A DNA stretch of 40,325 nt from a virus: UHGV virus genome UHGV-0382853. One strand, given 5' to 3'. The position numbers and the translations under genes were made by a program. The notes beneath the pieces are model-generated. The model was not told where the DNA came from, did no database searches, and saw only the letters and a list, made by a program, of their open reading frames with translations. Shown here piece by piece: positions 23,127 to 26,060 of the stretch. The first letter of the stretch is position 1, and each line of letters begins with the position of its first letter.

Positions 23127-23927
23127 TTACTTGATAAATCCTGCCGCCTTTCCCCGCCTGTATTCCTCCATCAGCCACTGCGCCGGTGTTATTCCCCCAA
23201 GGGTGGCGGCGTTAGGCATGCACCCGAAACTTCTCCCTGGTGGATGGTAAACGTCTCTCCCTGTGCCCGGAGGTGTACTCATGGGCTCTGGCTTTGCCTG
23301 TATGCTGATCACCGGATCGGGTATCTGCTGTCCGGAAGCCACCTTTTTCGCCCAATCATCGAGCAGCCTGCGCGCGTGTTTCTCAACCTCAATCTCGCTA
23401 AGCTGGCGCTGATACATTGCACGGCGGGTATCACATACGACCCAGTACATAACCGGATGTCGCCACGGGAATCTTTCGGGACCACCAGGATATAAACTTT
23501 TTTCCTTGCTGTACCGGTGAAACTCCGCCATCACATCGTCAATGGTGACGCCAAGAACCATCTTGCTGTCTTTACACCACTTGATGAATTGCCCTGGCGA
23601 CGGCCAGAACGGAGACTCACTGGCGCGGGCGTGGCGCATACCAGCAGAAACCTGTTCACGGGTTCGGATCCCCCCTTCGGCAAACGCAGCAATCCACTGC
23701 TGTTTTGCAGCAACTTCCTGCTCTGGCGTCTTCAGGTTGGTTACCACTGCCGCCGGAAACAGTTGTTTCAGCTGTTTGAAAAGGGCATCAACAAGCCTCT
23801 CTGCTGACATGTTCACCACATTGTCATTGTTGACGTACTGATGCTCATAACCTGACATGCGAGAAAGGGCTTCTCCGTCACGGTTTTGTATCGCGGTAAA
23901 AACGTTGTTCACAAGAAATCCTCCCAT
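23127..23927 (-). CDS. replication protein P-like (helicase loader)
   Basis: Block WIAAFAEGGIRTREQVSAGMRHARASESPFWPSPGQFIKWCKD closely parallels the lambda P motif W..AF.E.GI.T.EQV.AGMR.AR....PF.PSPGQF..WC. Confidence 0.8.
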   Translation of the reverse strand: MGGFLVNNVFTAIQNRDGEALSRMSGYEHQYVNNDNVVNMSAERLVDALFKQLKQLFPAAVVTNLKTPEQEVAAKQQWIAAFAEGGIRTREQVSAGMRHARASESPFWPSPGQFIKWCKDSKMVLGVTIDDVMAEFHRYSKEKSLYPGGPERFPWRHPVMYWVVCDTRRAMYQRQLSEIEVEKHARRLLDDWAKKVASGQQIPDPVISIQAKPEPMSTPPGTGRDVYHPPGRSFGCMPNAATLGGITPAQWLMEEYRRGKAAGFIK

Positions 23928-24724
23928 GCTTCAGGGCTGTTCCAGTGCGGAACGTTGTTATCAGGTAATGTTGATTGCTTCTGTCTGCTAATCTGCAGCC
24001 GCCTTGCCAGCTTCTGCTCCCACTGTGCCTGATGGTATGCCTTACCCTCAGCCATCCAGTAAATTCTGAACTCTGCAAGTTCCTGTGCCGTTGGCAGACT
24101 GTCCAGGTAGATCCCCTGCAATGAGCTTTTCCGAAGAAAGTCATCTGATGGCTGCCATTGTTCATGCATGACAAATTTGCCTAATTGCCCTGGCCCACCA
24201 GGAGGAACAAAGTTATTCATCACGGCGTTGTTTGCGTTGGGGTCATGATGCACAGAATCCCCGTTTTTTGTCCTGCTCTCCCTCTCTTGGTTAAATGACT
24301 GGTTATATGACTGGTTCTGGATCCCGTTTTTGGGATCATTCAACATCCCGTTTTTGGGATCATTCAACATCCCGTTTTTGGGTATATTCCCGCTTTCGGT
24401 AACATTACCGTTTTCGGGTTCATTACCCCCTTCCCGGTTGCCTTTAATGTTCCCTTTTTTGGTTATATTAAGAGAGAAAACCCGTACTCTTTTCGTCGCC
24501 CCCTTTCTCTCTCCGGTATCTGAAATAAGCCCCATTTTCATGAGCGATATAAGCCCGGCCTGCACGGTTTTTTTATTCAGGCAAGTGTCTTTAACGAGGC
24601 GTTCTATGCTGGGGTAGCAGAGGTTATATTCATCGGCTCTGTCAGCCATCGAGAGCAGTATGAGCTTTAATGATGAGCTACCTGGATCTGTCTCCCAGGC
24701 CCAATCTGTTGCATGTCTGCTCAT
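23909..24724 (-). CDS. replication initiator O-like protein
   Basis: N-terminal winged-HTH-like domain; central peptide repeats (PKNGMLND x2-3) coincide with DNA iterons; overlaps the P-like gene; GGAGAT SD. Confidence 0.7.
   Translation of the reverse strand: MSRHATDWAWETDPGSSSLKLILLSMADRADEYNLCYPSIERLVKDTCLNKKTVQAGLISLMKMGLISDTGERKGATKRVRVFSLNITKKGNIKGNREGGNEPENGNVTESGNIPKNGMLNDPKNGMLNDPKNGIQNQSYNQSFNQERESRTKNGDSVHHDPNANNAVMNNFVPPGGPGQLGKFVMHEQWQPSDDFLRKSSLQGIYLDSLPTAQELAEFRIYWMAEGKAYHQAQWEQKLARRLQISRQKQSTLPDNNVPHWNSPEAWEDFL
24321..24480. repeat. replication origin: 24-bp-period iterons with dyad ATCCC-N6-GGGAT plus adjacent AT-rich tract, inside the O-like gene
   Basis: atcccgtttttgggat at 24321 and 24345, degenerate copies at about 24369 and 24405, then tttttt/ttatatta AT-rich stretch. 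Confidence 0.65.
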
Positions 24725-24739
24725 GATTAATCTCCGCTA

Positions 24740-24940
24740 TCAGCCTGAGTGTTGTGGGGAGGAATTAATCATGATCTGCTTAATCTCTGCCCTGATGCGA
24801 CGGTTTGATTCCATGGTGCACTCAACACAGTGTCCGTTGTAAACCCAGCGTTCACTGTCATGTCCGTGCTTACATGTTTTTCCGGTGTAGTAGCGTTTAA
24901 GTCCGCGCTTTGCGGCATCAATACGTGTAATGATTTCCAT
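24740..24940 (-). CDS. small Cys/His-rich protein in the cII position
   Basis: Probable start at ATG 24940 (MEIITRID...); the track start is TTG; motif CKHGH...HCVEC. Confidence 0.35.
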   Translation of the reverse strand: MEIITRIDAAKRGLKRYYTGKTCKHGHDSERWVYNGHCVECTMESNRRIRAEIKQIMINSSPQHSG

Positions 24941-25020
24941 GGTAAGCCCTGTTATTGGTATTGGGATTACGGTTATTTTGTGCTGACACAAAAAAAAGAT
25001 CAACCATATTTGGTTTTTTA

Positions 25021-25035
25021 TTACCTTTGAGGTAC
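25021..25035. promoter_or_regulatory. TTACC-N5-GGTAC palindrome variant
   Basis: ttacctttgaggtac, between the tR1-like terminator and the next gene. Confidence 0.35.
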
Positions 25036-25040
25036 GAATA

Positions 25041-25321: not shown

Positions 25322-25357
25322 AGCTATTGCCTGATATTTATTTCAGATAATAAATAT

Positions 25358-25372
25358 TCACCTATAAGGTAA
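25358..25372. promoter_or_regulatory. operator-like palindrome in immunity region
   Basis: tcacctataaggtaa (one-mismatch variant). Confidence 0.45.
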
Positions 25373-25405
25373 CAAAAATCAAGGATAGTTACCCATGAGG
25401 TGCAT

Positions 25406-25420
25406 TTACCTGTTGGGTAA
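25406..25420. promoter_or_regulatory. operator-like palindrome in immunity region
   Basis: ttacctgttgggtaa; an additional partial site ttacccatgaggtgc lies at about 25390-25404. Confidence 0.5.
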
Positions 25421-25475
25421 TATTGCTTTAAATTGAATCATCTTCTGATTCAGATATGAGGCGATTTTCCAGAAA

Positions 25476-26060
25476 ATGAAAAGTATCCAGGACGTCCGCA
25501 GGCAAAATCTCAACGACTTGATCGACCGTGAATTCAATGGTGTTCAGACGCGGATGGCTGAAAAACTTGGAACTCAGGCAAATCTGGTAAACCGCTGGGC
25601 TCTTGGCAAGAAGGTTATCGGCGACCAGGTTGCGCGAAAAATTGAAGCTGCCGCCAATAAACCCCGTAACTGGCTTGATATCGATCGCTCGCTTTCTCAG
25701 GAAGGTTTTCAGCCTGTCGGACCAAGCGACATTGGTCAACTGGCGGCTCACAACCTGAAACGCTGGATGAGCGAAAGCCGCGACCTTTCAACGCAGGGAA
25801 AACTTCACCGCGCATCCGGCGTCGCCCAGGTAACAATCAGTCGCCTGTTAAACAATGAGGTCAGCGTTTCCATTTCCACCCTGGAGAATGTTGCATCCGC
25901 ATTCGGGCGTCACGGCTATGAATTACTGATTCACCCGCACGACCCTGCGACCATCAACTATGACCGCTCGCGCTACGCATTGTTACCCGAAACCGAGAAA
26001 GCAAAGATCGAAAGTTACATTGAATTTGTCATCAACCAGAACGAAAAAAACAAACAATAA
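25476..26060 (+). CDS. phage repressor, tandem-HTH type with no recognisable peptidase (autocleavage) domain
   Basis: 194 aa; two HTH-like segments (QTRMAEKLGTQANLVNRWALGKK and LHRASGVAQVTISRLLNNEVS); no S24-like Ser/Lys motifs seen; divergent from cro-like gene. Confidence 0.6.
   Translation: MKSIQDVRRQNLNDLIDREFNGVQTRMAEKLGTQANLVNRWALGKKVIGDQVARKIEAAANKPRNWLDIDRSLSQEGFQPVGPSDIGQLAAHNLKRWMSESRDLSTQGKLHRASGVAQVTISRLLNNEVSVSISTLENVASAFGRHGYELLIHPHDPATINYDRSRYALLPETEKAKIESYIEFVINQNEKNKQ

What the first reader, a model, noticed from the sequence alone, without database searches (positions are those of the whole stretch)
24321..24480. Iteron-type origin embedded in the O-like gene
At least three to four copies of a 24-bp-period repeat containing the dyad ATCCC-N6-GGGAT, followed by an AT-rich tract, lie inside the initiator gene and are mirrored as peptide repeats (PKNGMLND) in the protein. 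This is the lambda ori arrangement but with a different iteron sequence, defining the replication specificity of this phage.
Basis: seen in the sequence. Interest (0 to 1): 0.4.

Follow-up and report, generated by a model that had tools for sequence, protein, structure and literature searches.

The report
Replication origin inside phage initiator gene
The repeats are real and are almost certainly the binding sites of the phage's own replication starter protein, lying inside that protein's gene as in phage lambda; this is an unannotated example of a textbook arrangement.

Summary
Window 24321-24464 carries six copies of a 16-bp dyad site, ATCCCAAAAACGGGAT on the coding (-) strand. Three are strong, at 24-bp spacing, and three are degenerate. 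They lie in the linker-coding middle of a 271-aa initiator gene (23909-24724, -) of a phiV10-like temperate phage. That gene is followed by a lambda-P-type helicase-loader gene.

Comparative evidence shows the repeats are selected as DNA, not as peptide:
- In 80 loci from many Proteobacteria, chosen only by homology of the N-terminal domain, the motif is about 68-fold enriched just after that domain (233 hits against 6.9 +/- 2.5 in shuffles).
- The motif occurs in all three reading frames.
- Its outer arms co-vary to keep the dyad.
- It is the part of the gene best conserved at DNA level.

A second conserved element follows it: three 11-13-bp direct repeats, at window 24283-24320.

The initiator is not a Pfam Phage_rep_O protein. 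It combines an HTH_36 domain with a DnaT-like C-domain, the architecture published for DopC.

Verdict: a new member of a known kind, of modest interest.

The parts
23909..24724 (-). Initiator gene (271 aa): N-terminal HTH_36 winged-helix domain, repeat-encoded linker, C-terminal DnaT-like domain.
   Evidence: ORF. Pfam HTH_36 E=1.8e-10 (aa 18-67) and DnaT E=1.1e-15 (aa 184-252). PHROG 1032 'replication initiation protein' E=3e-108. It is 97-99% identical to the phiV10 p43 group.
24470..24724 (-). Coding part for the N-terminal DNA-binding domain (aa 1-85), the presumed iteron reader.
   Evidence: This domain alone was the query that retrieved the 80 iteron-bearing loci. It shows a weak profile match to the helix-wing part of lambda O / P22 gp18 (hhalign probability 60%, E=8.7e-5).
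24321..24336 (-). Iteron F, ATCCCAAAAACGGGAT (strong; perfect 5-bp arms).
   Evidence: Matrix score 24.4.
24345..24360 (-). Iteron E, ATCCCAAAAACGGGAT (strong).
   Evidence: Matrix score 24.4.
24369..24384 (-). Iteron D, TACCCAAAAACGGGAT (strong).
   Evidence: Matrix score 22.3.
24387..24402 (-). Iteron C, TTACCGAAAGCGGGAA (degenerate).
   Evidence: Matrix score 7.8. It is a member of repeat family D1. phiV10 and BP9 have ...GAAAACGGG here.
24405..24420 (-). Iteron B, AACCCGAAAACGGTAA.
   Evidence: Matrix score 19.2.
24449..24464 (-). Iteron A, AACCAAAAAAGGGAAC (weak). It is in a different reading frame from the others and lies within the AT-rich patch.
   Evidence: Matrix score 14.2, with a frame differing from sites B-F. 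The homologous site in GF-2 and PPompW is CACCCAAAAACGGGA(T/G), read in another frame as TQKR.
24283..24320 (-). Three direct repeats at 12-bp period (CAGAACCAGTCATAT / AACCAGTCATTT / AACCAAG). This is the second conserved origin element and the candidate unwinding or loading site.
   Evidence: TRF 12-bp x2.4 at 94% matches. The same triple [G/T]AA[C/T]C repeat, at 11-13 bp spacing, follows the iterons in 57 of 85 loci, with only 2 such clusters elsewhere. In 51 of the 57 the copies fall in two reading frames. Copy number varies in close relatives. GC 0.39 against 0.49 for the window.
24440..24479 (.). AT-rich patch (GC 0.30) on the N-domain side of the array; the alternative candidate for unwinding.
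   Evidence: Among the 2% least stable 40-mers of the window. Relatives do not consistently have an AT-rich stretch on this side.
23969..24175 (-). Coding part for the DnaT-like C-terminal domain (aa 184-252), the presumed partner of the loader and/or single-stranded DNA.
   Evidence: Pfam DnaT. E=7.6e-21 to the solved E. coli DnaT C-domain (6AEP, 4OU6, 2RU8).
23127..23927 (-). Lambda-P-family helicase-loader gene. Its start overlaps the initiator's stop codon.
   Evidence: Pfam Phage_lambda_P E=1.5e-56. PHROG 109 'P-like helicase loader' E=5e-92. phiV10 annotation.

Best explanation
Window ~24255-24480 is the replication origin of a phiV10-like temperate phage. It is built on the lambda plan and lies inside the initiator gene.

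Shown here:
- There are six 16-bp dyad sites, three of them strong, of the type (A/G)TCCC-AAAAAC-GGGA(T/C).
- The half-sites are 10 bp apart centre to centre, so they lie on one face of the helix, with an A-tract in the middle.
- The sites occupy the segment that encodes the linker between the N-terminal HTH_36 winged-helix domain and the C-terminal DnaT-like domain.
- These sites, and a following triple 12-bp direct repeat, are conserved as DNA wherever this N-domain occurs.

Inferred, by analogy with lambda O/ori-lambda:
- Dimers of the initiator's N-domain bind the dyads and assemble a bent nucleoprotein complex like lambda's 'O-some'.
- This complex destabilises an adjacent stretch. The most likely stretch is the promoter-distal triple repeat at 24283-24320. 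Less likely is the AT-rich patch at 24440-24479.
- The C-terminal DnaT-like domain, together with the P-type protein encoded next door, brings the host DnaB helicase onto the opened DNA.
- Rightward-operon transcription from the cro-side promoter passes through the origin, as in lambda.

The peptide repeats (PKNGMLND) are a by-product of the origin lying in a tolerant linker. This explains why natural relatives carry 2 to 6 in-frame copies.
For: 1. Reality and clustering of the sites.
2. Gene identities.
3. Link to the N-domain. Eighty loci were chosen only by homology of the N-domain (41-87% amino-acid identity; Enterobacterales, Vibrio, Acinetobacter, Pseudoalteromonas, Marinomonas, Desulfovibrionaceae, Sphingomonadales).
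- They carry 233 matrix hits in the 450 bp after that domain, against 46 in all other sequence on both strands (6.6 against 0.098 per kb).
- 59 of the 80 loci have at least 2 hits.
- Dinucleotide shuffles of those zones give 6.9 +/- 2.5 hits, maximum 14.
4. Selection acts on DNA, not peptide.
- Cores fall in all three frames (190/62/45), and 55 of 80 loci use at least 2 frames (examples).
- Codon choice is CCC/GGG throughout.
- blastn similarity to distant loci peaks over 24293-24412 (18-19 loci) and is lower over the folded N-domain (2-7 loci).
5. Dimer-type sites. Outer arm positions co-vary: pair 1/16 is complementary in 173 of 280 sites against 106 +/- 7 in shuffles, and pair 2/15 in 193 against 151 +/- 5.
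6. Module behaviour. The same N-domain-plus-iteron block is joined to DnaT, Phg_2220_C (lambda-O type), DnaA_N or unassigned C-domains. SPN1S has the same C-domain but another N-domain and lacks the sites.
7. Tolerance of in-frame copy change, as in lambda: 2-6 cores among near-identical relatives.
8. Likeness to the validated or annotated origins of lambda and P22.
9. Second element.
Against: - No experiment shows binding, unwinding or origin activity for this phage or any member of this initiator group. I found no paper on it.
- The stretch on the lambda-equivalent side of the iterons is only mildly AT-rich (GC 0.39-0.42; top 10-14% least stable). It is followed by a purine-rich, not AT-rich, tract, unlike many relatives.
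- The weakest duplex lies on the other side of the array.
- The initiator fails the Pfam Phage_rep_O test, and its similarity to lambda O is only marginal.
- The covariation and enrichment counts include related loci (many from Acinetobacter), so the shuffle statistics overstate independence.
- Cumulative GC skew has a local minimum near 24-26 kb, but this coincides with the switch in gene orientation.
Confidence: 0.75

Rival explanations
1. Coding repeats only. The array is a slippage-prone, low-complexity linker (N/G/K/P-rich) selected, if at all, as peptide. It has no role as DNA.
For: The three strong copies are perfect 24-bp tandem units in one frame. They expand and contract in-frame among close relatives, which is how simple coding microsatellites behave.
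Against: - The motif occurs in all three frames within single genes of relatives.
- Amino acids change (PKNG, PKIG, PKFG, PENG, TQKR) while CC-N6-GG and the arms stay.
- The arms co-vary to preserve a dyad that no peptide needs.
- DNA conservation exceeds that of the folded domain.
- Enrichment is about 34-fold over dinucleotide shuffles.
Confidence: 0.05
2. Initiator-binding sites with a control role rather than the start site. The protein binds its own gene to throttle its expression or to pair copies (handcuffing), while unwinding and initiation occur elsewhere, for example in the AT-rich intergenic stretches at ~24950-25040 or ~25340-25480.
For: - There is no strongly AT-rich stretch on the lambda-equivalent side of the array.
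- Intergenic stretches with GC of about 0.28-0.32 lie 0.5-1 kb upstream.
- Iterons in plasmids do double as control sites (established knowledge; reviews listed).
Against: - The conserved triple repeat directly abuts the iterons in 57 of 85 loci, and many relatives add an A-rich run there. This gives the full iterons-plus-unwinding-element layout of lambda and P22.
- The upstream AT-rich stretches are the immunity and terminator regions, and no matrix hit lies there.
Confidence: 0.12
3. Sites for some other protein, either a host factor or another phage regulator, that merely happen to lie in the initiator gene.
For: No binding data exist. The strong copies contain GATC, so Dam or SeqA could act there.
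Against: - The sites track the initiator's N-domain across hosts as different as Acinetobacter, Vibrio and Desulfovibrionaceae, which a host factor would not explain.
- GATC is absent from the GTCCC/GGGAC versions in relatives.
- No DnaA box better than one mismatch, and no IHF consensus, lies in 24150-24800.
Confidence: 0.05

Closest known systems
ori-lambda within gene O of phage lambda, and the annotated origin in gene 18 of P22
   Same: - The origin lies in the middle of the initiator gene, between its DNA-binding and partner-binding halves.
- It is a tandem array of dyad-symmetric sites with a central A-tract. Lambda has ATCCCTCAAAACGAGGGA and this phage has ATCCCAAAAACGGGAT.
- Site spacing is about 18-24 bp.
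- Sites are not all in one reading frame.
- In-frame copy-number changes are tolerated. Stx phages have 6 iterons and 13 extra residues (PMC7466680).
- A P-family loader gene lies immediately downstream.
- The gene lies in the cro-side early operon.
   Different: - The initiator N-domain is Pfam HTH_36, not Phage_rep_O.
- The arms are 5 bp with a 6-bp spacer, against lambda's 6-7 bp arms and 5-bp spacer.
- The C-domain is DnaT-like rather than Phg_2220_C.
- The iterons are followed by three 12-bp direct repeats and a purine-rich tract, rather than a roughly 40-bp tract of about 22% GC.
- No GC-rich palindrome like that of P22 is evident.
DopC/DopE pair (Brezellec et al. 2017, PMC5509034)
   Same: The two-gene architecture is identical: an HTH_36 N-domain plus a DnaT C-terminal motif, followed by a lambda-P-family protein.
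   Different: DopC/DopE is a chromosomal, vertically inherited pair in Cellvibrionales and Oceanospirillales. Its authors found no iteron-like sequences in it. The window's copy is phage-borne and carries the full iteron array, so it looks like the mobile, origin-bearing form of that architecture.
Iteron origins of theta-replicating plasmids (RK2, pPS10, F, R6K; Rep_3/WH1-WH2 initiators)
   Same: Repeated initiator-binding sites lie next to an unwinding element that itself contains short direct repeats, the 13-mers. The initiator is a winged-helix protein (reviews listed).
   Different: - Plasmid iterons are direct repeats bound by monomers and lie outside the rep gene. Here each site is a dyad inside the gene.
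- No Rep_3 domain is present.
- Helicase delivery is by a P-type loader.
E. coli DnaT (primosomal protein I)
   Same: The C-terminal 70-85 residues are clearly homologous (E=7.6e-21 to PDB 6AEP). RefSeq accordingly names the gene 'DnaT-like ssDNA-binding domain-containing protein'.
   Different: Only the C-domain is shared. The N-terminal half is a sequence-specific winged-helix domain with its own sites, so the common database name 'primosomal protein I' misdescribes the protein's role.

Membership tests
Lambda-type origin (ori inside the initiator gene) | The origin lies within the initiator's coding sequence, between the parts encoding the DNA-binding and partner-binding domains. | tested here: met
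   The sites at 24321-24464 fall at codons 87-135, between HTH_36 (aa 18-67) and DnaT (aa 184-252).
Lambda-type origin (ori inside the initiator gene) | At least 3-4 tandem iterons, each an inverted repeat with a central A-tract. | tested here: met
   There are six sites, three of them strong, with 5-bp arms around AAAAAC. For the lambda comparison.
Lambda-type origin (ori inside the initiator gene) | An AT-rich unwinding region directly adjoining the iterons on the promoter-distal side. | tested here: inconclusive
   - The promoter-distal neighbour, 24283-24320, has GC 0.39 and ranks only in the top 10-14% least stable.
- It is nevertheless a conserved triple repeat.
- The clearest AT-rich patch, 24440-24479 (GC 0.30), lies on the other side of the array.
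Lambda-type origin (ori inside the initiator gene) | The initiator belongs to the replication protein O family (Pfam PF04492). | tested here: not met
   - The window protein hits HTH_36 and DnaT only.
- Lambda O and P22 gp18 hit Phage_rep_O at 1e-36 to 1e-38.
- The profile-profile match of the helix-wing part is only marginal (probability 60%).
Lambda-type origin (ori inside the initiator gene) | A P-family helicase-loader gene immediately downstream of the initiator gene. | tested here: met
   PF06992 E=1.5e-56; the start overlaps the initiator's stop.
Lambda-type origin (ori inside the initiator gene) | The initiator binds the iterons, and the fragment supports replication when the initiator and loader are supplied. 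| not testable with these tools
   This needs EMSA or footprinting and a minimal-replicon assay. No published data were found.
DopC/DopE-type pair (HTH_36 + DnaT_C protein with a P-like partner) | An HTH_36 N-domain and a DnaT C-terminal motif in one protein, with a P-family gene adjacent. | tested here: met
   Architecture as described in PMC5509034.
DopC/DopE-type pair (HTH_36 + DnaT_C protein with a P-like partner) | Chromosomal, vertically inherited, and without iterons (the domesticated state). | tested here: not met
   - The window is a phiV10-like phage genome.
- The gene is present in only 424 of 5426 complete E. coli genomes.
- Iterons are present.
Plasmid iteron origins (Rep_3 initiators) | Direct-repeat iterons outside the rep gene, and a Rep_3 (WH1-WH2) initiator. 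| tested here: not met
   The sites are dyads inside the gene, and there is no Rep_3 hit.

The most novel reading that the evidence does not exclude
The HTH_36-type phage initiators share one deeply conserved, two-part origin across several classes of Proteobacteria. Part one is an array of dyad sites with an almost invariant CC-(A/G)A(A/C)AA(C/T)-GG core. Part two is exactly three GAA(C/T)C-containing direct repeats at 11-13 bp spacing. Both are written over the coding sequence in shifting reading frames and are independent of which C-terminal domain the initiator carries.

On this reading, the triple repeat is a sequence-specific unwinding or single-strand-capture element, comparable to the 13-mers of oriC and plasmid origins, and it has not been described for phage origins. 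Lambda and P22 origins would be relatives of this older design. The chromosomal DopC would have lost both elements on domestication.
Probability: 0.3. Interest if true: 0.5.

Novelty: new member of a known kind. Interest (0 to 1): 0.3.

Why it matters
- It locates the probable origin of the phiV10 group of E. coli O157-related temperate phages. The gene is carried by about 8% of complete E. coli genomes. No origin is annotated in the phiV10 RefSeq stretch examined, and the RefSeq E. coli hits list only the two protein names under the match.
- It corrects the common database label 'primosomal protein I / DnaT' to an origin-binding initiator.
- It gives a simple sequence signature (a dyad array plus a triple 12-mer after an HTH_36 domain) that finds origins in many unrelated prophages.
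- It provides a ready-made pair for testing how origin DNA and protein-coding sequence are reconciled in one stretch.
- It supplies the origin-bearing counterpart to the published DopC/DopE architecture.

It does not change the textbook picture of lambdoid replication.

Tried and rejected
- Single-sequence AlphaFold2 model of the initiator. Mean pLDDT was 34.7, so it says nothing about linker disorder or domain folds. An alignment-based model was not attempted, because loci-derived sequences are not accepted by that tool and the point is secondary.
- First shuffle control. It used context-preserving swaps and under-shuffled the sequences, giving a mean of 72.6 hits. I discarded it and replaced it with a proper Altschul-Erickson dinucleotide shuffle.
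- Literature. Searches for phiV10 or epsilon15 origins, for the iteron strings and for DnaT-type phage initiators returned nothing on this origin; the string matches were unrelated primers. The epsilon15 genome paper is not held. Weigel & Seitz 2006, which may list predicted origins of this type, could not be read.
- IMG/VR scan. The best 80 loci were all 99-100% identical to the window. They were useless for diversity but useful for copy-number variation.
- GC skew. The local minimum near 24-26 kb coincides with the switch of gene orientation, so it is not independent evidence.
- DnaA boxes and IHF sites. Only one one-mismatch DnaA-like 9-mer (24246) was found, and no IHF consensus.
- The 12-mers as iteron half-sites. 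This is plausible in Acinetobacter loci (ACGGAATC) but fits poorly in the window (GAACC or TAACC against GGGAT), so I did not adopt it.
- Terminator-like hits at 24331-24374 (+) are just neighbouring iteron arms pairing on the antisense strand.
Full report
**What is in the sequence**

The window is a phiV10-like temperate podovirus (genus Uetakevirus). The 816-bp gene at 23909-24724 is 97-99% identical to phiV10, phiv142-3, PAS61 and EC.W1-9. The gene order matches the phiV10 RefSeq record:
- a repressor-like gene on the + strand;
- a cro-like gene, a terminator and a small ORF on the - strand;
- then the 271-aa gene, a P-like gene and a second terminator.

The finding lies inside the 271-aa gene, which is on the minus strand.

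Tandem Repeats Finder reports three arrays:
- a perfect 24-bp unit x2.6 at 24321-24382;
- an 18-bp-period degenerate array x3.1 at 24372-24427;

The repeat finder gives six copies of the 19-nt core, with spacings of 24, 24, 18, 18 and 45 bp.

On the coding strand the core is ATCCCAAAAACGGGAT. This is two 5-bp arms in dyad symmetry around AAAAAC. A weight matrix ranks the sites as follows:

| Site | Coordinates | Score |
|---|---|---|
| F | 24321-24336 | 24.4 |
| E | 24345-24360 | 24.4 |
| D | 24369-24384 | 22.3 |
| B | 24405-24420 | 19.2 |
| A | 24449-24464 | 14.2 |
| C | 24387-24402 | 7.8 |

The rest of the 40-kb window, both strands, has only three marginal hits. The exact dyad TCCC-N6-GGGA occurs twice, against 0.32 expected. 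The codons read NDPKNGML twice, then NDPKNG.

**The genes**

The 271-aa protein has a Pfam HTH_36 domain at aa 18-67 and a DnaT DNA-binding domain at aa 184-252.
- Its C-domain matches solved E. coli DnaT C-domains at E=7.6e-21.
- It falls in PHROG 1032, 'replication initiation protein'.
- It is not a Pfam Phage_rep_O protein, whereas lambda O and P22 gp18 are.
- A profile comparison aligns its recognition-helix and wing segment with that of lambda O and P22 gp18 only marginally (probability 60%, E=8.7e-5).

The next gene (23127-23927) is a clear lambda-P-family helicase loader (PF06992, E=1.5e-56). The combination of HTH_36 plus DnaT C-motif followed by a P-like protein is exactly the architecture published for the chromosomal DopC/DopE pair. 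The authors of that work found no iterons there (PMC5509034).

**Peptide repeat or DNA element?**

I took only the N-terminal 85 residues, with no repeat sequence, from the window and four phage relatives. I used them to fetch loci from one genome per species. This returned 80 loci at 41-87% identity from Enterobacterales, Vibrio, Acinetobacter, Pseudoalteromonas, Marinomonas, Desulfovibrionaceae, Sphingomonadales and others. Five results follow.

1. *Enrichment.* A 16-mer matrix hits 233 times in the 450 bp after the N-domain and 46 times in all remaining sequence on both strands. That is 6.6 against 0.098 per kb, and 59 of 80 loci have at least two hits. Proper dinucleotide shuffles of the same zones give 6.9 +/- 2.5.
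2. *Reading frame.* The cores occur in all three reading frames (190/62/45), and 55 of 80 loci use at least two frames in one intact ORF. In GF-2, for example, CACCCAAAAACGGGAT is read as TQKRD while its neighbours are read as PKIG.
3. *Arm covariation.* The outer arm positions co-vary so as to keep the dyad (ATCCC/GGGAT, GTCCC/GGGAC, GTACC/GGTAC, CACCC/GGGTG). Pair 1/16 is complementary in 173 of 280 sites against 106 +/- 7 in shuffles, and pair 2/15 in 193 against 151 +/- 5. Relatedness among loci inflates these figures, but the pattern is plain.
4. *DNA-level conservation.* blastn similarity between the window gene and distant loci peaks over 24293-24412 (18-19 loci). It is much lower over the folded N-domain (2-7 loci) and absent over the C-domain. 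So the 'linker' is the best conserved DNA in the gene.
5. *Absence with a different N-domain.* SPN1S shares the C-domain but has a different N-domain, and it has no such sites.

Together these results exclude a purely coding repeat. They indicate sites for a dimeric protein that travels with the N-domain, and the obvious candidate is the initiator itself.

**A second element**

In 57 of 85 loci the last iteron is followed by exactly three copies of a [G/T]AA[C/T]C-containing unit at 11-13 bp spacing. Only two such clusters occur anywhere else in those loci. In 51 of the 57 the 13-bp steps put the copies in two reading frames. This too is a DNA element.

In the window it is CAGAACCAGTCATAT-AACCAGTCATTT-AACCAAG at 24283-24320. 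phiV10 has one extra unit. Many relatives follow it with an A-rich run (Acinetobacter, Vibrio salinus, Pseudoalteromonas). The window instead has a purine-rich stretch, GAGAGGGAGAGCAGGACAAAAAACGGGG.

**Where would the DNA open?**

In lambda the AT-rich region lies promoter-distal to the iterons, at about 22% GC (PMC7466680).
- In the window, that side (24283-24320) has GC 0.39 and ranks only in the top 10-14% least stable 40-mers.
- Averaged over relatives, the promoter-distal side is slightly more AT-rich (0.37-0.39 against 0.41-0.43, with a locus mean of 0.44).

I favour the conserved triple repeat as the unwinding or loading site. This step is inferred, not shown.

**Module behaviour and population variation**

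The N-domain-plus-iteron block is joined to different C-domains. Among 73 members, 7 carry DnaT, 5 carry Phg_2220_C (the lambda-O C-terminal type), 2 carry DnaA_N, and the rest have no Pfam assignment. GF-2 pairs the block with a lambda-O-type C-terminus and a P gene, and AP22 pairs it with a DnaB-type helicase gene. This is the division of labour known for lambda O: the N-half gives origin specificity and the C-half gives the partner.

Among 80 IMG/VR relatives with a 99-100% identical N-domain, the number of perfect cores ranges from 2 to 6 in 24-bp steps, giving gene lengths of 792, 816, 840 and 888 nt. BP9 lacks one unit. This parallels the four and six iterons of lambda and Stx phages.

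**Mechanism proposed**

- *Shown:* dyad sites and a triple repeat conserved as DNA and tied to the N-domain; the domain make-up of the initiator; the adjacent P-type loader.
- *Inferred by analogy with lambda:* N-domain dimers bind the dyads. The half-site centres are 10 bp apart, so they lie on one face, and the A-tract favours bending. Multiple dimers form an O-some-like complex that destabilises the adjoining stretch. The DnaT-like C-domain, together with the P-type protein, delivers host DnaB. Transcription from the cro-side promoter (candidate at 25375-25347 on the - strand; terminator at 25069-25050) runs through the origin.

**Comparison and novelty**

The layout is that of lambda and P22. 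Even the site sequence resembles lambda's: ATCCCTCAAAACGAGGGA against ATCCCAAAAACGGGAT. However, the initiator belongs to another Pfam family, the C-domain is DnaT-like, and the post-iteron region differs.
- No rep_origin feature is annotated in the phiV10 RefSeq stretch examined.
- RefSeq E. coli genomes, of which 424 of 5426 carry the gene, list only 'DnaT-like ssDNA-binding domain-containing protein' and a replication protein under the match.
- I found no paper describing this origin, but subscription literature, notably Weigel & Seitz 2006, could not be checked.

I file it as a new member of a known kind. The family-wide two-part design, especially the triple repeat, is the only part that might be new.

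**Dead ends**

The single-sequence structure model was uninformative (pLDDT 34.7). The first shuffle control was faulty and was replaced. GC skew is confounded by gene orientation. No convincing DnaA or IHF sites were found.

Noticed in passing
window 24320-24361: Three GATC (Dam) sites sit in or between the strong iterons (24320, 24334, 24358), created by the ...GGGAT-C junctions. Relatives with GTCCC/GGGAC arms lack them, so they are probably incidental. They could still couple this phage's origin to Dam or SeqA.
   Followed up: partly
L002 (PP488543.1, 'Escherichia phage BP9', 131237-138295): A record classified as a 138-kb Vequintavirus ends with about 7 kb of phiV10-like immunity and replication genes (repressor, initiator, P-like, ea22). 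This looks like a chimeric assembly or contamination rather than a lytic phage carrying a temperate module. PH444 (PP350014, 115 kb, unannotated) may be similar.
   Followed up: no
L169 841-985 (P22 ori) and L148, L156, L158, L161, L164 (60 bp after the last iteron): P22 has a Phage_rep_O initiator, while several Edwardsiella, Plesiomonas and Serratia loci have HTH_36 initiators. Both share the same post-iteron layout: GAATC..., an A-rich stretch, then a CCCCC-(T)NN-CCCCC-AAA-GGGGG palindrome. The unwinding half of the origin may therefore be exchanged independently of the iteron and initiator half.
   Followed up: partly
L007 (Salmonella phage SPN1S, 1030-1845): A phage of the same genus has an initiator with the same DnaT-like C-domain but an unrelated N-terminal half. 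It has no iterons of this type and no P-like gene next to it, so replication modules are mosaic even within Uetakevirus.
   Followed up: partly
window 23909-23927: The first ATG of the P-like ORF (23927) lies 19 nt inside the initiator gene. phiV10 is annotated with a GTG start that overlaps the initiator's TGA stop (GTGA), which suggests translational coupling of initiator and loader.
   Followed up: no
window 24331-24350 and 24355-24374 (+): The terminator scan reports two stem-loops followed by T-runs on the antisense strand. They are simply the facing arms of neighbouring iterons plus the T5 of the core. Like lambda's iterons, adjacent sites could form hairpins or cruciforms.
   Followed up: partly
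window 24258-24273: A marginal extra site, GGACAAAAAACGGGGA (matrix score about 4), lies beyond the triple repeat. It is followed by GGGG-N16-CCCC (24255-24232 region). This may be a remnant of the iteron or palindrome seen after the AT-rich region in relatives.
   Followed up: no
window 24740-25003 (-): The small ORF between the cro-side terminator and the initiator gene (phiV10 p42, PHROG 1081, unknown function) has four Cys/His in a zinc-ribbon-like pattern (C..H...C..C). It is conserved with epsilon15 gp40. It sits where lambda has cII, but its role is unknown.
   Followed up: no
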